Assembly: GCA_963756875.1 (NCBI GenBank)
Contig: CAVWPA010000003.1
Span: 1,568,001 to 1,632,000 of the forward strand
DNA from: an uncultured Verrucomicrobiae bacterium
GTDB lineage: Bacteria > Verrucomicrobiota > Verrucomicrobiia > Chthoniobacterales > UBA10450
Length of the DNA stretch: 64,000 nt
Direction: 5' to 3'
Shown here: in pieces, positions 21,053 through 64,000 of the stretch
Layout: every line of letters starts with the position of its first letter
Position numbering within the stretch: the first letter of the stretch is position 1
Notes under the pieces: generated by a model
Seen by the model: only the letters and a program-made list of their open reading frames with translations
Database searches by the model: none
Told to the model about the DNA's origin: nothing
Program-made: the position numbers and the translations under genes

Positions 21053-22117
21053 TCACGGATAAGTCGAAAGAATCTGCGTTATCCGCGTAATCTGCGGTTG
21101 AAAGGAGAGGCGCACTTTTCCGGTGCCGCGCACAATCCTGCCGATTCGTTTCGCGCGCAGGATCGACATGGCGCGTTTTGCATTTCGTGCGGAAACGATT
21201 GCCACCATGCCGACGCCCATGTTGAAGACCTGATACATTTCGACGCGATTCACGCGTCCCTGTTCCTGCAAAATTTCGAAAATACGCGGCACGCGCCAGC
21301 TTCTGGTTTCGACGACCGCATCGCAGTTTTTGGGAAGGATACGCGGCAGATTATCGATTAATCCGCCACCTGTGATGTGAGCGGCGCCCTTGATCATGCG
21401 GGAAGGCGCTTTCGCAAGAAGCGGCTGATAGTTCTTATGCACGCGCAAAAGTTCTTTGCCGACCGGGCCGGCTAATCCGGGCAGACGCGAGCCAGGCTTC
21501 AGTCGCATTTTCTCGAACAGGATTTTCCGCGCGAGCGAATAGCCGTTAGTGTGCAAGCCGTTGGACGCGAGACCAAGAACCACGTCGCCTGGTTTGATTT
21601 TGCCGCCGTCGATCATTTTGCTCCGATCGACCACGCCAACGATGCAGCCTGCGAGATCGTATTCGCCTTTCCGATACATCCCCGGCATCTGGGCGGTCTC
21701 GCCGCCGATCAACGCGCAGCCGGCGGATCGGCACGCCTGTGAAAATCCGCTCAGCAGTTGCTGAAAAACGCGTGGCTCGAGTCTTTCGCAACCGATGTAA
21801 TCCAGAAAAAATAGCGGACGCGCGCCGATGACCGCGATGTCGTTCACACAATGGTTCACGAGATCGGCGCCAACCGTGTCGTGTTTGTTCATCGCGAACG
21901 CGATTTTCAATTTGGTTCCCACGCCATCGATACTCGCGACCAGGACCGGATCGCGCATTCCGGGAAAATTGGCCCGGAACAATCCACCGAAGCCGCCGAG
22001 TTTCCCCAAAACCTGCGGACCGTGGGTCTGTTTGACGAACGATTGAATGCGCCGCTTGAGCTTGTTGCCGAGATCGACATCGACGCCCGCGCGTGCGTAA
22101 GCTTTTCTTGTTCTCAT
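21053..22117 (-). CDS. purM: Phosphoribosylformylglycinamidine cyclo-ligase (AIR synthetase)
   Basis: YARAGVD, DGVGTKL, GGETAQMPG, SNGLHTNGYSL and HITGGG motifs; the last codons run into a 9-mer repeat. Confidence 0.96.
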   Translation of the reverse strand: MRTRKAYARAGVDVDLGNKLKRRIQSFVKQTHGPQVLGKLGGFGGLFRANFPGMRDPVLVASIDGVGTKLKIAFAMNKHDTVGADLVNHCVNDIAVIGARPLFFLDYIGCERLEPRVFQQLLSGFSQACRSAGCALIGGETAQMPGMYRKGEYDLAGCIVGVVDRSKMIDGGKIKPGDVVLGLASNGLHTNGYSLARKILFEKMRLKPGSRLPGLAGPVGKELLRVHKNYQPLLAKAPSRMIKGAAHITGGGLIDNLPRILPKNCDAVVETRSWRVPRIFEILQEQGRVNRVEMYQVFNMGVGMVAIVSARNAKRAMSILRAKRIGRIVRGTGKVRLSFQPQITRITQILSTYP

Positions 22118-22123
22118 CGGAAA

Positions 22124-22185
22124 TGGAGGGACGCGCTCTGTGGCGTCCCAAGAATTAATGGGACATGACGGCGCATGTCCCTCCA
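22124..22185. repeat. GGAG-type REP doublet between purF and purM
   Basis: tggagggacgcgctctgtggcgtccc ... gggacatgacggcgcatgtccctcca. Confidence 0.88.
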
Positions 22186-22186
22186 A

Positions 22187-23747
22187 TCATTTGAGATCGG
22201 CGAACAGTGTTGGTTGCGTCTCCTCGTCGGCGAGCGCTTTGGAACGGGCTTCGCGTTTTTCCATGATAAATTTGTCGAGCGCGGGATCGACGGGCAGGGG
22301 ATAATTGCCGGTGAAACAGGCGAGGCAAAATTCGTTCATCGGTCTTCCCGTTGCGCGCACCATTCCCTCAACGTCGAGGTAACCAAGGCTGTCCACGCCG
22401 AGATATTTGCGGATCTCTTCCATCGACATCTGGTTGGCGATCAGTTTTTGGGGATCCGGGAAATCGATTCCGTAATGGCAGGCGAAACGATGCGGCGGGC
22501 AGCTTACTCGCATGTGCACTTCTTTTGCACCGGCCTCGCGAAGGTTGACAACGCGGGCCCGGGCCGTGGTCCCGCGCACAATGGAATCATCGATGACGAC
22601 CACTCGTTTTCCTTCGACCATTTCCTTGATCAAGATTCAACTTTACCCGCACATCGAAATCGCGAATGAGCTGGCTGGGCTGCAGGAACGTGCGCCCGAT
22701 GTAGTGATTGCGCACAAACGCGTGCTGGTAGGGAATCTTCAGTTCCTCCGCAAAACCGAGCGCCGCATAATTTCCCGAGTCGGGCACCGGCACGACGATA
22801 TCGGCATCGACAGGGAATTGGCGTGCCAGCTCGCGGCCCATCTCCGTCCGGACTTTGCCGACATTGACGCCGCCCATCATGCTGTCGGGCCGGGAGAAGT
22901 AAACATATTCAAACATGCAAAAGGCCGGCTGCTCCGGCTGAAACGGGAATTCCGAGCGCATTCCATTTTCGTCGATGATCAACACTTCGCCCGGTTGGAT
23001 TTCGCGAATAAACTCCGCGTGAATGAGATCGAACGCGCACGTTTCGGAGGCGAGGATGTAGGCGCCGTCGAGTTTGCCTAACGAAAGCGGCCGCCAGCCG
23101 AACGGATCGCGCACTGCAATGAATTCGCGTTCGCTCATGATGAGCAGCGAAAACGCGCCTTCGATTCGCCGCAACGCCGCCAGAACGTTGCCGCCGTTCT
23201 CGGAGGGCTGGGCCAGCAGATGCAGAATGATCTCGCTGTCGGCTGTTGTTTGAAAAATGGAGCCTTTGCGCTCCAGCTCGTCGCGCAAAATATCCGCGTT
23301 AATCAAATTGCCATTGTGGGCAATTGCCATCTGTCCGCGAACGCAATCGACCACGAACGGTTGCGCATTTTTAATCGTGCTGGTGCCGGTTGTGGAATAA
23401 CGCGTGTGACCGATGGCGCGCCGCCCTTTGAGTTTCTCCAGTTCGACCTGGCCGAATACCTGGGAGACCAACCCCATGTCTTTGTGAATGAGAAACGAGG
23501 TGCCGGGGCCGTTGCTTGTCACGATGCCGGCGCTTTCCTGCCCGCGATGCTGAAGAGCGAAAAGTCCGTAATAGGTCAGCACGGCAGCGTTCGGATGCCC
23601 GAACACGCCAAAGAGCCCGCATTCATGCTGCGGATAGGCCTCCGCGTCGGTTAACTCGCGCGTGTCGATCTTGTCCAGGAAGGGCACACCAAATGATCCA
23701 CTAAATCGATCAGCATTCAATTGGGCAATTTTGGAGTGCGCGGACAT
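22187..23747 (-). CDS. purF: Amidophosphoribosyltransferase, with a +1 frameshift near 22632; start uncertain (23747 or GTG 23687)
   Basis: ECGLFG, LQHRGQESAG, GHTRYST and PVPDSG motifs; VVVIDDSIVRGTT lies in a second frame. Confidence 0.95.
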
Positions 23748-23787
23748 GTCCGCGCTTTTAAAGCGGCGACATGTCGCCGCACTCCAA
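23729..23787. repeat. REP doublet (RAYT1 family), left copy
   Basis: 59 bp ttttggagtgcgcggacatgtccgcgct-tttaaa-gcggcgacatgtcgccgcactccaa. Confidence 0.93.
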
Positions 23788-23789
23788 CA

Positions 23790-24317
23790 TCAAAAATCGT
23801 CGGGGAGTTTTAGTCTATCAGTCTTGAAATTCTTCACCGACTCCGCGAAGGCTGGCGACGCGTTTCGCAAGAACCATGCAGCCGAACACCATTTATAATT
23901 CTCCGCTACCGGTGCAATCCCGTGTCGCACCGGATTGTAATGAACATAGCTTAATCGCGCCAGGTACGACCGCTCGAACGTGATGTGGCTTTCCCAATAC
24001 TGAAACCACACTTTCCGCCCCGGTGCGTTGTCCCAGCGGTTTAGTTGTTTTGCCGTCTGCATGTGCAGTTTGCTCACAAACTTTCGGAGACTTTTGGGGT
24101 TGCGAGGTGAGGCCGCGATGAAGTGGTAGTGATTTGCCAGCACCGACCAAGCGCGCAGGTCCCACCCGAATTCACCAGCGCGCGCGAAGAGAGATTGCAA
24201 AAAGAAATCCAGCCTCATCGGCGAATTCAAATGTGGCCGTTTCAGGTATGTGCCTGCCGTGACCATGTACGATCCACGCTCAAAAAGCCAATGGGACGGC
24301 CCGTGTGGCCAATTCAT
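23790..24317 (-). mobile_element. REP-associated tyrosine transposase (RAYT-like, IS200/Y1 HUH family) #1
   Basis: YMVTAGT, NHYH (HUH), VWFQYWE and YVHYNPV motifs; flanked by REP doublets. Confidence 0.9.
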
Positions 24318-24357
24318 GGAAGGTGATTGCCTAAAACAAAATTGCGCGGCAAGAACA

Positions 24358-24416
24358 TTTTGGAGTGCGCGGACATGTTCGCGCTTTTAAAGCGGCGACA
24401 TGTCGCCGCACTCCAA
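24358..24416. repeat. REP doublet (RAYT1 family), right copy, direct orientation
   Basis: 58/59 identical to 23729-23787. Confidence 0.93.
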
Positions 24417-24418
24417 GA

Positions 24419-26885
24419 TCACAGACTTGGAACGGACTCGGCGAAATCGCTTTCCACCGCGCGGCGGATGGCGTTCCACCAATCGTCGTAAAGATCGGCA
24501 ATCGGCCAGCGGAAGTCTTCGTCGCTCAGGCGGATGCGAAGCTCGTTTCCGCCGACTTTGCCAAGCTGCTGAAACGGAACGTCGCGCTCGCGCAGAGCCG
24601 ATATGGTTTTTTCCAGATTGTTTTCGGCGATGGAAATCACGATCCGCGATTGCGCCTCGTTGAAGAGAATTTCCGCTGTGGAGGCAGGCGTGTCGCCTGC
24701 ATCGCGGCCCACACGGCCGCCACTACGGCTACAATCGATATCCGCGCCGAGAAGGCTGTCCGGATTGAAGCAACATTCGGCGAGGGCAACCGCGAGGCCG
24801 CCTTCGCTGCAATCGTGGGCACTCTTCACGAGGCCTTCCCGAATTAAATCGCGCACTGCATTTTGGATTTTGATTTCGTGCGCCAGATCGACATGAGGGG
24901 GCGGGCCCTCCTTCCGACCGAGGCAGACTTTCAAAAATTGCGAGCCGCCAAGACTTGGAGGGACGACCAGAGCCAGCCCGCTGCGGCGGGTGTCGTCCGA
25001 ATTTTGGGACGCGACAGAGCGCGTCCCTCCAACCAGAATGATGGCGTCGCCGGCATTTTTGAACCATTGCGTCGTGATGTGCTTTTCGTCGTCGATCAGG
25101 CCGACCATGCCAACGGTCGGCGTTGGATCGACCACTCCGGAGGGGCTCTCATTATATAGAGAGACATTTCCGCCCGTGACCGGGGTACCGAAAGCCCGGC
25201 AGGCTTCGGCAACTCCCTCGACCGCTTCGCGCAATTGCCAGAAATTTTCCGGCTTGTAGGGGTTGCCGAAATTCAAATTGTCGGTTACAGCGAGCGGCTT
25301 CGCGCCTGAGCAGGTAAGATTCCGCGCCGCTTCGGCAACGGCGATTTTGCCGCCTTCGCGCGGATCGAGCCGGCAGTAGAGCGAATTGCAATCGGTGGTC
25401 GCGGCGAGAATTTTGTTCGCATAACGGACGAAAAAGACGGCGGCATCCGAGCCCGGTTTTACGACCGTGCCGGTGCGAACAGTGTGATCGTATTGGCGAT
25501 AAACCCAATTCTTCGAGGCAATGGTGGGATTACGAAGCAACTGGCGAAGCGCGGAGTGAGCGTCGATTTTGGAAAGATCTTGTAGCCACGGCCCTGCGGG
25601 CTGTCCTTTCCCGACGCGCCACAGGCGCGTGGCTACAGCCGGCGGTTTGGCTTCGCGCGAGTAAAGAGGCGCTTCGTCCGCGAGCGGTTTTGCCGGAATT
25701 TCGGCGGCGATCGTGCCGTTGTTGCGCACGCGCATCATTCCATCGTCGGTAACGCGTCCGATTTCCGCGCAGGGCACGTCCCATTTGTCGAAGATCTCGC
25801 GAACGACATTTTCTTTTCCATGTTTCGCGATGATCAACATGCGTTCCTGCGATTCGCTAAGCAGAATTTCGTATGGCGTCATTCGGGGTTCGCGTTTTGG
25901 CACCTTGGCGAGGTCGATTTCGATGCCGGTGCCGCCGCGGCTCGCAGTTTCGCAGGTGGAACAGGTCAGGCCGGCCGCGCCCATATCCTGGATGCCGGCG
26001 ACCGCGTCCGCGCGCCAGAAGTTCCAGGCACGCTTCGAGCAATAATTTTTCTTTGAATGGATCGCCGACCTGGACGGCCGGACGATCCTCGCGTGATTGT
26101 TCGGTGAGTTCGCGCGAGGCAAACGCGGCGCCGGCCAGACCGTCACGCCCTGTTTCTGCGCCGACATAGAAAACCGGATTGCCAATGCCGCGCGCCGCGC
26201 CGCGCGCGAACTGGTCGTGACGCAAAACGCCAAGGCAAAAGACATTCACGAGCGGATTGCCTTCGAAGCTTTCATCGAAATAAATTTCACCGCCGATGGT
26301 CGGGATGCCGATGCAATTGCCGTAATGCGCGATGCCGGAGACAACGCCGGTAAAGAGCCGCCGGTTGGCGGCGATGCTGGATGCTCGATTCTTGATACTT
26401 GATGATTCGCCGCGCGCCTCCGATCCAGCATCGAGTATCGAGTATCGAGTATCTTCTGTGATTGGTCCGAAGCGCAGCGAATTGAGACAAAACTCCGGAC
26501 GCGCGCCCATGGTGAAAATATCGCGGATGATTCCGCCCACGCCGGTGGCTGCGCCTTGAAAAGGCTCGATGGCGCTGGGGTGATTATGGCTTTCGATTTT
26601 GAATGCAATGGCCCAGCCATCACCGATATCGACGACTCCGGCGTTTTCTTCTCCGGCTTTCACCAGGATGTTAGGCCCCGTGGTGGGAAATTTTCTCAAC
26701 TCTTTGCGAGAATTTTTGTACGAGCAATGCTCGCTCCACATGACGGAGAAGATTCCGAGCTCGGTAAAATTCGGATCGCGTCCGAGGATTTTCCTGATGC
26801 GCTCGAATTCCTCCGGCGTAAGGCCGTGTTCCGCCACAAGTTGCGGAGTAACAGGCGGGTCGAGAGTCGGAGCTGAACTACTCAT
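24419..26885 (-). CDS. purL: Phosphoribosylformylglycinamidine synthase subunit PurL, with a +1 frameshift near 26010 and four in-frame repeat insertions
   Basis: [42 protein letters not shown] and TGGNVSLYN motifs. Confidence 0.95.
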
Positions 26886-27121
26886 CGGCGCTTTACGTTA
26901 GCGAGTGCATGCGTCTGCTCAACTCGCGAAAGATATCAGCGTGAACGGCGCAAAATGGTCATTCGCTCGAATCGCGGGGCGGCAACAGGAAGGCGCTACC
27001 TTCCCAAGAGAGGGAAGCTAACAGCTTCCCCTACAGAACAAGACATTCGACGGACGCCTCGGAGAGGCGCCCATAGCTGCCATAGATTTGCGTTTCCGGC
27101 GCAAATCGCAGAACATTGCGC

Positions 27122-55917: not shown

Positions 55918-58026
55918 ATGTCTGAAGCCAGGGCGAAGATTCGGCGCAGAAAATCCATCGCGACTCTCGGCGGCGCGCTGCTGCTGGTTGCCCTCCTCGC
56001 GGCCTACTCAAACCACTTTTACAACGGCTTCCATTTCGACGACGCGCATACGATCGAGAACAACGCCGCGATTCGCGATCTGCGGAACATTCCGCTCTTC
56101 TTCCGCGACGCGACGACCTTTAGTTCGCTCCCGAGCAATCAATCGTATCGGCCACTTGTCTCCACGCTGCTGGCAATCGATTACTCGTTAGGTGCCAGTC
56201 CGGCTCGGACCAGCGGATTGCATCCGTTCTGGTTTCACTTTTCGATCTTCGCCCTCTTCGTCGTGCTCGTGCTCATGCTCGCGTTTGTCATCGAACGGTT
56301 TTTGGAAAACAAGACAAGTTCTGGAAACGATGAAGACGGAAAGCAAGTTCGCGCCGGCGGGACGCCGGCGCCAGACGCCCGGGACCCGCACACGGGCGGG
56401 CAGGCTGGGCGTGCTACCCGGAATTGGATGATCGCGCTCGCGGCGGCAGCGTGGTACGGATTGCATCCGGCAAACGCCGACACGATTAATTACATCATCG
56501 CGTCGTCGGAGGTCATCTCGACACTCGGCGTCGCCGCCTCGTTTGCCATGTACCTCGGATTCCCGCAGCTGCGCCGGTACTATATATATATACTGCCGGC
56601 GGCGGTCACAGTCCTGGCCAAGCCAGTTGCGGCGATTTTTCCGGTGTTGTTCGCTGCGTATTGCTTCTTATTCCCGCCTGGGGATGCGCGCCTGAGAGAG
56701 GCGGGTTGTAGCCACGGCCCTGCGGGCCGTCGACGCCTCACAGAGGCGTGGCTACAGGGGCGCCTCATCGAGATCATCCCGTCGTTCGTAATCTGCGCGG
56801 CAACGCTGCTGTTCGTTCAGCACATGACGCCGCGCACGTGGGTCGCCGGCGCCGCCGACGCCCGCAATTACCTGATCACGCAGCCCTATGTCGCGTTGCT
56901 CTATTTTAAGACCTTCTTCTGGCCGAGTAGCCTCTCCGCCGATTACGACCTCAACGCCTTTACGACCACGGACGATTCGCGCTTCTGGTTAGGCTTCGCT
57001 TTTGTAATTCTCTTTCTCGCCACTGCAATCATGGCAGTTCGCTTTAGGAAAACGCGCCTGATCGGGTTCGGTTTGCTTTGGTTTCTCATCGCGCTTTTGC
57101 CGACGTCACTCTTCCCACTGGCTGAAGTAATGAACGATCATCGCACATTTCTCCCCTACATCGGTCTCGTTATCGCCATGGCCGGCGCAGCTTCGTTGCT
57201 GGTGAATCGCCGGGTCGCATACAGTCTACCGGCAAAGATCGCGGCGGTCTGCGTGATCGTGCTGTTCCTATCGGTCAACGGCTACGCGACGTTTCAACGG
57301 AACGAGGTTTGGAAAACCGAGGGAACGCTCTGGCACGATGTTACGCTGAAGAGTCCGCGCAACGGCCGCGGCCTGATGAACTATGGCAACACGCTCATGG
57401 CAAAGGGCGATTTCGCGGGCGCGCTCGATTATTTTCATCGGGCACAAAAGCTCACCCCGCAGTATTCCGTGCTGTTGATCAATCTCGCTGTTGCGGAAGA
57501 CGCGACAAACCAGGACGCGCTTGCGGAGAAGGACTTCAAGGAAGCGCTTCGGCTGGATCCGGGAAATCCCGACAGCTACATTTATTATGCGCGTCATTTG
57601 ATCTCGCGTTCGCGTATTTCAGAGGCGCGCGCTCTTCTGCGCAAGGCATTGGAGCTCAGCCCGGCGGACCTCACCGCGCGCGAACTCTTCGCGCAGACGA
57701 ATGGTCTCGTAGCTGGCAAACCAGTGGCAGCAGAAACTCCGGAAGCCTATCTCGAACGCAGCCTCCAGCTTTATAACGAGGGACGTTTCGCCGAGTCGAT
57801 CGACGCCTGCCGGAAAGCGCTTGCGCTCCGGCCAGGCTACGCAGAAGCATGGAATAACATTGGCGCCGCTTATAATAAACTCCGCCGCTATAAAGAAGGG
57901 GCTGCCGCGTGTGAACAGGCCCTTCGTTTGAAGCCGGACTTCGACCTGGCGCGAAACAACCTGCAGTATGCGCGCCAGAGAATGAAGGAATCGTTGCCGC
58001 CCGCGAATGACCCGCCTTCGCCTTGA
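55918..58026 (+). CDS. TMTC-like integral-membrane GT-C glycosyltransferase with C-terminal TPRs
   Basis: FHFDD and SYRPL motifs in the first loop, many transmembrane helices, LSADY, EVMNDHRTFLP, RNEVWK and TPRs. Confidence 0.8.
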   Translation: MSEARAKIRRRKSIATLGGALLLVALLAAYSNHFYNGFHFDDAHTIENNAAIRDLRNIPLFFRDATTFSSLPSNQSYRPLVSTLLAIDYSLGASPARTSGLHPFWFHFSIFALFVVLVLMLAFVIERFLENKTSSGNDEDGKQVRAGGTPAPDARDPHTGGQAGRATRNWMIALAAAAWYGLHPANADTINYIIASSEVISTLGVAASFAMYLGFPQLRRYYIYILPAAVTVLAKPVAAIFPVLFAAYCFLFPPGDARLREAGCSHGPAGRRRLTEAWLQGRLIEIIPSFVICAATLLFVQHMTPRTWVAGAADARNYLITQPYVALLYFKTFFWPSSLSADYDLNAFTTTDDSRFWLGFAFVILFLATAIMAVRFRKTRLIGFGLLWFLIALLPTSLFPLAEVMNDHRTFLPYIGLVIAMAGAASLLVNRRVAYSLPAKIAAVCVIVLFLSVNGYATFQRNEVWKTEGTLWHDVTLKSPRNGRGLMNYGNTLMAKGDFAGALDYFHRAQKLTPQYSVLLINLAVAEDATNQDALAEKDFKEALRLDPGNPDSYIYYARHLISRSRISEARALLRKALELSPADLTARELFAQTNGLVAGKPVAAETPEAYLERSLQLYNEGRFAESIDACRKALALRPGYAEAWNNIGAAYNKLRRYKEGAAACEQALRLKPDFDLARNNLQYARQRMKESLPPANDPPSP

Positions 58027-60504: not shown

Positions 60505-60566
60505 TGTAGTGGCAGGCGTGCCGCCTGCAAAACTTGCGGAACGCAGCCGGCACGGCTGCCTCTACA
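60505..60566. repeat. GTAG-type REP doublet between duplicated pilM starts
   Basis: tgtagtggcaggcgtgccgcctgc ... gcagccggcacggctgcctctaca. Confidence 0.88.
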
Positions 60567-63565: not shown

Positions 63566-64000
63566 ATGAAATTGGATGACAACGAACAGGCCTTGCGTGT
63601 CGGCAATGCGTGCGCCGCCGGATCGGGGAGCGCACGCGCCTCGCGTGCTCTTTCCGGCGCCTCGCCGGAAAGTTCCTGCGAAATTCATTATTCCAAGCGA
63701 AGACTTCCGCATTTTGAGCGGCCGTGGGCGAAGTATGCTGTCTGTTTTGCTACGTATCTCCGATCTCGGCTTTCAGTCGCAGAACGAGATCTTGTTTTGC
63801 AAAGCATTCTATACGGCTATCGGACAAATCAATACGAGCTGTATGCGGCATGTGTGATGCCCGATCATGTTCACCTGCTCTTTGAGCCACAAATAAAAAT
63901 GGAAGGCGAAAGTGGGCAGACTATTTTTTGGTCCTTAACCGAAATTCTGAAGGGTATCAAGTCCACGACCGCGCATCGGATCAACAAGGCCGCTGGGAAA
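63566..64000 (+). mobile_element. REP-associated tyrosine transposase (RAYT-like) #3, truncated by the window end
   Basis: Manual translation (absent from the ORF track): MKLDD...YSKRRLPHFERPWAKYAVCFAT...CVMPDHVHLLFEP...ILKGIKSTTAHRIN. Confidence 0.88.

What the first reader, a model, noticed from the sequence alone, without database searches (positions are those of the whole stretch)
24419..26885. Four different palindromic repeats inserted in frame into loops of the core enzyme PurL
Seen in sequence: purL carries (A) 24677-24733, a REP like 60505-60566, encoding ..[19 protein letters not shown]..; (B) 24955-25032, a GGAG REP whose arm matches the intergenic REP at 22124 with one mismatch, encoding ..[25 protein letters not shown]..; (C) 25581-25637, a TGTAGCCACGGCC REP also found at 56707-56756, encoding ..[19 protein letters not shown]..; and (D) 26373-26453, an inverted 7-mer array encoding ..[27 protein letters not shown]... 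All four keep the frame and fall between conserved motifs. Established knowledge: REPs are classically extragenic, and the known precedent for coding insertions is the Rickettsia palindromic elements. Inference: RAYT-mobilised REPs of several families act here as a source of new peptide loops in housekeeping proteins.
Basis: partly seen in the sequence, partly recalled or inferred. Interest (0 to 1): 0.8.

Follow-up and report, generated by a model that had tools for sequence, protein, structure and literature searches.

The report
Mobile hairpin repeats translated inside PurL
Four short mobile DNA hairpin repeats sit in frame inside the purine-synthesis gene purL of a soil Verrucomicrobium and are read as extra protein loops, a real but already described habit of these repeats in this phylum.

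Summary
The four elements are real, at the stated coordinates, and each belongs to a repeat family found elsewhere in the genome. A, B and C are REP doublets. Their families also flank REP-associated tyrosine transposase (RAYT) genes elsewhere in this genome. D is an inverted heptamer array with no transposase link. Each is a multiple of 3 long and lies where Thermus PurL (3VIU) and more distant relatives have a gap.

Across 80 Chthoniobacterales PurL genes, three loops (A, B, C) carry many different palindromic inserts that turn over quickly.

About 8% of the orthologues I checked are split in the same way, so an assembly error is likely but unproven.

The kind is published. Di Nocera et al. 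2013 (PMC3733652) list intragenic GTAG REPs, most of them in the verrucomicrobium Opitutus terrae, including two REP dimers in its FGAM synthase. This is a new member of a known kind.

In passing: a whole RAYT lies in frame inside metH here. This scan has noted in-frame REPs and nested RAYTs before on other genomes.

The parts
26010..26885 (-). purL, N-terminal reading frame (start codon to frameshift); contains element D
   Evidence: TIGR01736 positions 1-245, 386.6 bits; FGAR-AT_linker, AIRS.
26008..26009 (-). One extra base (G on the coding strand) that shifts the frame between LELLAR and [10 protein letters not shown]
   Evidence: 2467 nt, remainder 1. (7 close relatives lack the base).
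24419..26007 (-). purL, C-terminal reading frame (frameshift to stop); contains elements C, B and A
   Evidence: (positions 243-716, 486.9 bits). (3VIU, E 2.7e-108).
24677..24733 (-). Element A: compact REP doublet (GTGG/GTAG-headed family A), 57 nt, read as [19 protein letters not shown]
   Evidence: Its family flanks the RAYT at C3:11993-12373. 3VIU has a 14-residue gap here.
24955..25032 (-). Element B: GGAG-headed REP doublet, 78 nt, read as [25 protein letters not shown]
   Evidence: (I9). Its family flanks the RAYTs at C1:672236 and C3:1385567. 3VIU has a 21-residue gap here. pLDDT <50 at residues 334-354 of the C-half model.
25581..25637 (-). Element C: GTAG REP doublet (TGTAGCCACG family), 57 nt, read as [18 protein letters not shown]
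   Evidence: (I2). Its family flanks the RAYT at C2:136870-137274. It lies in the linker between the two halves of PurL. pLDDT <50 at residues 128-142.
26373..26453 (-). Element D: inverted heptamer array (GATRCTN units around an 11-nt inverted repeat), 81 nt, read as [27 protein letters not shown]
   Evidence: I10; z -2.1; two relatives, 81% and 74% identical. One relative lies in frame in a UbiD-family gene. 26 residues have no counterpart in 3VIU.
23790..24317 (-). RAYT-like gene directly downstream of purL
   Evidence: NF047646 79 bits (cut-off 80), E 3.1e-22. PF01797 18.4 bits, below cut-off.
24362..24414 (.). REP doublet of that RAYT's own family (GGAGTGCGCGGACATG), ending 5 nt before the purL stop codon
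   Evidence: (I1). (4 matches in the window against 0.04 expected).
23733..23785 (.). Twin REP doublet on the other side of the RAYT

Best explanation
purL of this Chthoniobacterales (Verrucomicrobiota) genome carries four short palindromic repeat elements inside its coding DNA. Three are REP doublets (REPINs) of three different families. The fourth is an inverted heptamer array.

Inferred mechanism:
1. Single-strand hairpin elements of the REP/RAYT type enter or are copied into the gene. RAYTs belong to the same Y1 superfamily as IS200/IS605 transposases.
2. Only copies that add a multiple of 3 bases, carry no stop codon and fall in surface loops or linkers survive selection on an essential enzyme.
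3. The hairpin DNA is then translated as 19-27 extra, probably disordered residues.

The peptides are most likely neutral passengers. What is kept is the DNA hairpin, not the peptide. The same loops are occupied, emptied and re-occupied by different REP families in related genomes.
For: Shown:
- All four elements belong to genome-wide families and fold better than shuffles.
- The genome has 9 RAYT-like genes, 5 above the NF047646 cut-off. Families A, B and C flank four of them.
- The spans are 57, 78, 57 and 81 nt, and 19 of 24 element-frames are stop-free.
- 3VIU shows gaps at A, B and C and has no counterpart for D. Ten relatives from other families of the order keep short baseline loops at sites C and D, and mostly at sites A and B.
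- In 80 public Chthoniobacterales PurL C-halves plus G000, inserts of at least +6 aa occur at site B in 43 of 81, at A in 44 of 80 and at C in 32 of 81, with many unrelated peptide types.
- Perfect inverted repeats of at least 8 nt occur in 21 of 43 (B) and 22 of 44 (A) inserts, against 0 of 38 and 0 of 36 rows without an insert.
- On a PurL tree with the insert columns removed, the site-B type changes at least 28 times and presence/absence at least 12 times in 78 rows. Starred sister pairs differ.
- Hairpin stems are kept through two-sided changes between genomes, for example CGGCCC/GGGCCG against CGGCTC/GAGCCG at site C.
- The family-A core lies at site A in 17 of 80 rows, often as a single REP.
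- Intact purL genes in relatives carry the same insert types.
- The C-half model has low confidence at B, C and partly A, next to well-modelled flanks, and matches 3VIU.

Inferred: RAYT mobilisation, the selection filter, and neutrality of the peptides.
Against: - purL is frameshifted in this assembly, so expression of an intact protein here is not shown. No sequencing run could be listed to check it.
- D has no RAYT, only 3 full-length copies and the weakest fold (z -2.1; 4 of 200 shuffles fold as well).
- At site B the insert replaces about 5 ancestral codons rather than simply adding DNA. A clean cut-and-paste model does not predict that.
- The tree is a quick search with 30 of 75 inner branches under 80% support, so the counts of changes are rough.
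- The N-terminal model was unusable (mean pLDDT 42.5). Loop placement of D therefore rests on alignment only.
- No model coordinates were available, so surface exposure was not measured.
Confidence: 0.85

Rival explanations
1. purL here is a decaying pseudogene. The frameshift is real and the repeats are junk accumulating in a dead gene.
For: - A one-base frameshift splits the gene.
- Neighbouring purF also appears as two ORFs.
- 10 of 113 orthologue-level ORFs of relative G015, at about 8 places, hit G000 in more than one frame.
- Genome completeness is 87.6%.
Against: - There is no second purL.
- Both halves stay about 82% identical in protein to the closest relative, with all motifs intact.
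- There is no stop codon other than those caused by the single shift.
- The same insert types sit in unbroken purL genes of relatives.
- Two other few-contig relatives (G005, G011) also show a split purL, as assembly indel errors would give.
Confidence: 0.1
2. The inserted loops have been taken over for a function, such as contacts with PurQ/PurS or regulation, and are kept for their peptides.
For: The same four loops are enlarged across a whole bacterial family. The site-C insert is shared by G000 and at least 6 other genomes.
Against: - Peptide sequences at one site are unrelated between close relatives.
- What co-varies is the DNA stem.
- Many relatives have the short ancestral loop (38 of 81 at site B).
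- The inserts are modelled with low confidence.
Confidence: 0.05
3. The hairpins act at the RNA or DNA level inside the gene, for example as translational pauses between folding units or as mRNA stabilisers, and are kept for that reason.
For: The stems are maintained by compensatory changes. Element C sits in the linker between the two halves of PurL. REPs are known to act as RNA elements, as stated in PMC3733652 (abstract and discussion passages).
Against: Stem maintenance is also expected from fresh insertion or conversion from the genome's REP pool. The L088 variant equals the variant that flanks a RAYT in G000. Many relatives have empty sites. There are no expression data.
Confidence: 0.05

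Closest known systems
Intragenic GTAG/CGTC REPs (Di Nocera, De Gregorio, Rocco 2013, BMC Genomics 14:522, PMC3733652; I read passages and searched Additional file 3)
   Same: - GTAG-headed REP dimers lie in frame in known proteins and encode about 20-30 residues.
- The highest number was found in the verrucomicrobium Opitutus terrae.
- Several inserts can occur in one gene.
- Many hosts are replication and repair genes, as here (MutS, MutL, UvrA, DnaE).
- Its Additional file 3 lists Oter_3711, a 1438-aa FGAM synthase, with two GTAG-17 dimers.
   Different: - Here the host is the small PurL type (PurLQS form).
- There are four inserts from four different families in one gene.
- One insert is a heptamer array, not a REP.
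- I also add evidence from 80 relatives that the same loops turn over between REP families.
Rickettsia palindromic elements (Ogata et al. 2000 Science; 2002 Genome Res; seen only as cited in PMC3733652 and PMC10969869)
   Same: Palindromic repeats are inserted in frame in housekeeping genes, at positions thought compatible with the protein fold.
   Different: RPEs are about 100-150 bp (size as given in PMC10969869) and no dedicated transposase is known for them (recalled). The elements here are 57-81 bp REP doublets with RAYT genes in the same genome.
REPIN/RAYT systems (Nunvar 2010 PMC2817692; Bertels and Rainey 2011 PMC3116915; search listings and abstracts only)
   Same: Inverted REP doublets are present. 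Single-copy RAYT genes are flanked by their own REP family. Several families occur per genome. Inheritance is vertical over long times.
   Different: Classical REPINs are extragenic. Here a sizeable share lies inside reading frames, and intragenic doublets have very short spacers (3 nt in element A against about 17-25 nt in the intergenic copies seen).
REP sequences inside tnpA-REP genes (Quentin et al. 2018, PMC6006769, passages)
   Same: REPs inserted in a coding sequence without breaking the frame, in a peripheral loop.
   Different: There the host gene is the RAYT itself. That paper discarded unexpectedly long proteins as fusions or annotation errors.

Membership tests
REP/REPIN elements served by RAYTs | Short (20-40 bp) palindromic unit forming a stem-loop | tested here: met
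   A, B and C each fold into two hairpins (z -3.0, -4.6, -3.1).
REP/REPIN elements served by RAYTs | Conserved GTAG (or variant) tetranucleotide at the foot of the hairpin | tested here: inconclusive
   C has GTAG/CTAC. A has GTGG/CTAC here and GTAG in intergenic copies. B begins with GGAG, not GTAG. D has none.
REP/REPIN elements served by RAYTs | Many dispersed copies in the same genome | tested here: met
   Family A core has about 38 copies and the family C core about 22. B gave 19 blast hits, including one full-length copy. D has only 3 full-length copies.
REP/REPIN elements served by RAYTs | Arrangement as inverted doublets | tested here: met
   A, B and C are doublets in purL and elsewhere.
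REP/REPIN elements served by RAYTs | A RAYT gene flanked by the same REP family (REPtron) | tested here: met
   A at C3:11993, C at C2:136870, B at C1:672236 and C3:1385567. None was found for D.
REP/REPIN elements served by RAYTs | Cleavage or mobilisation by the RAYT | not testable with these tools
   This needs biochemistry or population data.
Rickettsia palindromic elements | About 100-150 bp elements of the RPE families, found in Rickettsia | tested here: not met
   The elements here are 57-81 nt, the taxon is different and RAYT genes are present. The resemblance is in behaviour only.
PurL (FGAM synthase II, TIGR01736) | Full-length match above the curated cut-off in one reading frame | tested here: not met
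   There are two pieces of 386.6 and 486.9 bits against a cut-off of 525.75, split by the frameshift. Read through the break, the protein aligns end to end with 24 relatives.

The most novel reading that the evidence does not exclude
The four PurL loops are fixed landing pads of a REP/RAYT system that has adapted to life inside reading frames. REPs of several families are inserted at the same codon positions, precisely removed and replaced again and again, as the seamless excision and target-specific insertion of Y1 (IS200/IS605-type) transposition would allow. The transposases themselves are carried in frame inside essential genes: metH in this genome, and recG, alaS, thrS, valS and carB in relatives. 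Neither repeat nor enzyme can then be lost without a precise deletion.
Probability: 0.3. Interest if true: 0.75.

Novelty: new member of a known kind. Interest (0 to 1): 0.4.

Why it matters
This is a clean, densely sampled natural experiment on which positions of an essential enzyme tolerate 20-30 extra residues, and on how long mobile hairpins persist inside genes.

For annotation, it explains why PurL and many other proteins of soil Verrucomicrobiota are longer than their family models. It also explains why odd low-complexity peptides such as VAG...GY or GDTPA recur in them.

The turnover at fixed codon positions gives a testable handle on whether RAYTs excise and insert REPs precisely, which is still an open point for REPIN biology.

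Tried and rejected
- Public sequencing runs for 24300-27000: none was listed. The frameshift and expression could therefore not be checked, and read laying was not used.
- Structure of the N-terminal 288 residues with a 23-row alignment: mean pLDDT 42.5, unusable. Element D was placed by alignment to 3VIU instead.
- Tandem Repeats Finder reported nothing inside purL.
- I first thought the regular spacing of family-A hits (about 82 nt) might be a CRISPR array. The sequences are alternating REP doublets around a RAYT gene, so I rejected that.
- Pfam at default thresholds did not recognise the two RAYT-like ORFs of the window. NCBIfam NF047646 did.
- The k-mer count of repeats inside long ORFs (227 of 1023 intervals) is mechanical. 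It includes simple-sequence repeats and possible antisense or spurious ORFs. Only 20 ORFs were checked by Pfam, and 3 of them had no family.
- The junctions of the frameshift places in other genes showed no obvious common context, so the cause of the frameshifts stays open.
- Notes of this scan on this genome: none.

Full report
**Anatomy.**
The window is G000:C3:1568001-1632000 of a 2,686,387-base genome in 3 contigs. purL lies on the minus strand at 24419-26885. It is listed as two ORFs, 25857-26885 (342 aa) and 24419-26245 (608 aa). The gene is 2467 nt long, which leaves a remainder of 1. An alignment of the coding DNA with 7 close relatives shows one extra G in GCGCGC-GAC, between the conserved LELLAR and [10 protein letters not shown]. 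On the plus strand this is a C at 26008-26009. TIGR01736 finds model positions 1-245 (386.6 bits) and 243-716 (486.9 bits) here and no second purL. purM (21053-22186) and purF (two ORFs, 22187-23747) lie next to it.

**The four elements.**
All four are present as described.
- The inverted-repeat scan returns the outer arms of B (11 nt, perfect), C (19 nt, 84%) and D (11 nt, perfect), and an inner hairpin of A.
- As single-stranded DNA all four fold better than 200 shuffles, with z-scores of -3.0, -4.6, -3.1 and -2.1.
- A is a REP doublet with a 3-nt spacer. The core 14-mers of its family occur about 38 times. They form alternating arrays on both sides of a RAYT gene at C3:11993-12373. The copy at 60505-60566 is the same family with a longer spacer.
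- B has a full-length copy at C1:283676 (87% of 79 nt). It matches the intergenic REP at window 22124-22151 with one mismatch. Its family flanks the RAYTs at C1:672236 and C3:1385567.
- C matches window 56706-56727 exactly. Its family flanks the RAYT at C2:136870.
- D is built from heptamers around an 11-nt inverted repeat. Two elements of the same architecture exist, at 73/90 and 69/93 identical positions. One of them lies in frame between the N-terminal and Rift domains of a UbiD-family gene. I found no RAYT link for D.
- The genome holds 9 RAYT-like genes, 5 above the NF047646 cut-off. One of them (23790-24317, 79 bits against a cut-off of 80) lies directly downstream of purL. It sits between two doublets of yet another REP family.

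**In frame, and in loops.**
The spans are 57, 78, 57 and 81 nt. Of their 24 possible reading frames, 19 are stop-free. The main filter is therefore length and position, not stop codons.

Against Thermus thermophilus PurL (3VIU) the alignment has gaps of 21 residues at B and 14 at A, and two gaps of 4-5 at C. The 26 residues of D have no counterpart.

In an alignment with 24 relatives, the ten from other families of the order keep short baseline loops at sites C and D, and mostly at sites A and B. Members of the same family carry inserts of varied length and sequence.

A model of the C-terminal 532 residues (62-row alignment, mean pLDDT 72.3) has pLDDT below 50 at 128-142 (C), 334-354 (B) and 435-438 (within A). 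The flanks are well modelled, and the model matches 3VIU (Foldseek E 1e-36, TMq 0.67). Other low-confidence stretches exist too, because half the protein was missing. The N-terminal model failed.

**Relatives.**
The nearest public records are MAGs labelled Verrucomicrobiota, Chthoniobacterales or Candidatus Udaeobacter. In 80 of their PurL C-halves plus G000:
- Site B is at its 21-residue baseline in 38 of 81 rows and enlarged by 6 or more residues in 43.
- Site A is enlarged in 44 of 80 rows and site C in 32 of 81.
- The inserted peptides fall into several unrelated types.
- Their DNA is palindromic. Perfect inverted repeats of at least 8 nt occur in 21 of 43 (B) and 22 of 44 (A) inserts, against 0 of 38 and 0 of 36 rows without an insert. 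At site C even the short alleles are often palindromic (16 of 49).

I built a quick maximum-likelihood tree of 78 rows with the insert columns removed. Three partial rows (L083, L115, L125) were dropped. On it the site-B type needs at least 28 changes and presence/absence at least 12. Starred sister pairs differ: none against one type, and one type against another. Support is weak for 30 of 75 inner branches.

G000's own families recur at the same sites:
- The A core is at site A in 17 of 80 rows, often as a single REP in alleles I had first taken as baseline.
- C is at site C in 7 of 81 rows.
- B is at site B in 4-5 of 81 rows.
- Family A also appears at site C in one genome.
- Family-A-like peptides appear at site D in two others.

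Stems are kept by two-sided changes. At site B the insert replaces about five ancestral codons.

**Genome-wide.**
Of 1023 short intervals made of 14-mers present at least 8 times, 227 lie inside open frames of 250 aa or more, with at least 50 aa on each side. Such frames cover 77% of the genome. REPs are therefore depleted in coding DNA but far from excluded. This count is mechanical and includes simple repeats.

I tested 20 such ORFs, and 17 have Pfam families. They include MutS, MutL, FtsK, RNase R, PolB, DnaE, SMC, a type II/IV secretion ATPase, UvrA (1488 aa with about nine repeat intervals), MetH, GH57, GGT and RsmE.

Compared with 243 kb of relative G015, G000 has 22 insertions of 6 or more residues in 36,457 aligned residues. 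Seven of them overlap high-copy 14-mers.

**The frameshift.**
10 of 113 orthologue-level ORFs of G015, at about 8 places, match G000 in more than one frame, some of them twice. Completeness is 87.6%. Two other few-contig relatives also show a split purL. Both halves of purL remain about 82% identical to the nearest relative. I read the shift as most likely an assembly indel (inference, about 3 to 1). No run was listed to test this.

**Literature.**
Di Nocera et al. 2013 (PMC3733652; passages) report REPs inside genes in several species, most GTAG ones in Opitutus terrae. They describe dimers encoding 20-30 residues, double inserts in one gene, and a bias to replication and repair genes. Their Additional file 3 lists Oter_3711, an FGAM synthase, with two GTAG-17 dimers. 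A MITE review (PMC10969869; passages) covers RPEs and intragenic ERIC. The kind is therefore known.

What this case adds:
- four families in one small-type PurL;
- a heptamer-array element used in the same way;
- evidence from 80 genomes for turnover at fixed loops.

**Side observation.**
The metH open frame of this genome (C2:23186-27811, 1542 aa, NF007024 1932 bits) contains a complete RAYT at residues 401-542 (NF047646, 72.8 bits). It lies between the homocysteine and pterin domains, with REP-encoded peptides on both sides.

Relatives carry RAYTs in frame in these genes:
- metH (G017);
- alaS (G004);
- recG (7 genomes of three families, same site);
- valS (G026);
- carB (G003, G029).

The HUH and Tyr motifs are kept. 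A search for longer proteins found 1408 with E <= 1e-10. The 120 listed are nearly all MetH, AlaRS, ThrRS or HrpB-type helicases.

Two literature searches found no description. Quentin et al. 2018 discarded over-long proteins. This scan has reported the same arrangement in priA, alaS and thrS of other genomes. Those are AI notes and not independent proof.

Noticed in passing
G000:C2:23186-27811 (locus L144, minus strand); outside the window: metH is one 1542-aa open frame with a complete RAYT (NF047646, 72.8 bits, residues 401-542). The RAYT is in frame between the homocysteine and pterin domains and is flanked on both sides by REP-encoded peptides.
   Followed up: partly
Loci L162-L173 (relatives G017, G004, G015, G016, G003, G022, G025, G026, G029): RAYT domains lie in frame inside metH, alaS, recG (7 genomes, same site between GPLPLF and IIGTHALL), valS and carB. 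The HUH and Tyr motifs are kept. 1408 longer proteins in the public collection match the metH RAYT. Searches found no paper on this.
   Followed up: partly
window 63710-64000 (G000:C3:1631710-1632135): A stand-alone RAYT (225-aa frame, cut by the window end) is 68% identical to the RAYT nested in metH. It is flanked by the same GGGGAGCGCACGCG REP family.
   Followed up: no
window 22187-23747, minus strand: purF appears as two overlapping ORFs: 386 aa with GATase domains, and 148 aa with the VVVIDDSIVRGTT stretch. This suggests a second frameshift near 22633, next to the one in purL.
   Followed up: no
G000:C3:700928-705391 (locus L143): uvrA is a 1488-aa open frame (NF001503, 1288 bits) with about nine high-copy repeat intervals inside it. 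That is roughly 500 residues longer than the 943-position model.
   Followed up: partly
G000:C3:1559226-1560827 (locus L153): A heptamer-array element 81% identical to purL element D lies in frame at about residues 157-184 of a UbiD-family decarboxylase, between its N and Rift domains.
   Followed up: partly
It may be intragenic too.
   Followed up: partly
whole genome G000: About 8 places among 113 orthologue-level comparisons with relative G015 are split between reading frames, some twice in one gene. Genome completeness is 87.6%.
   Followed up: partly
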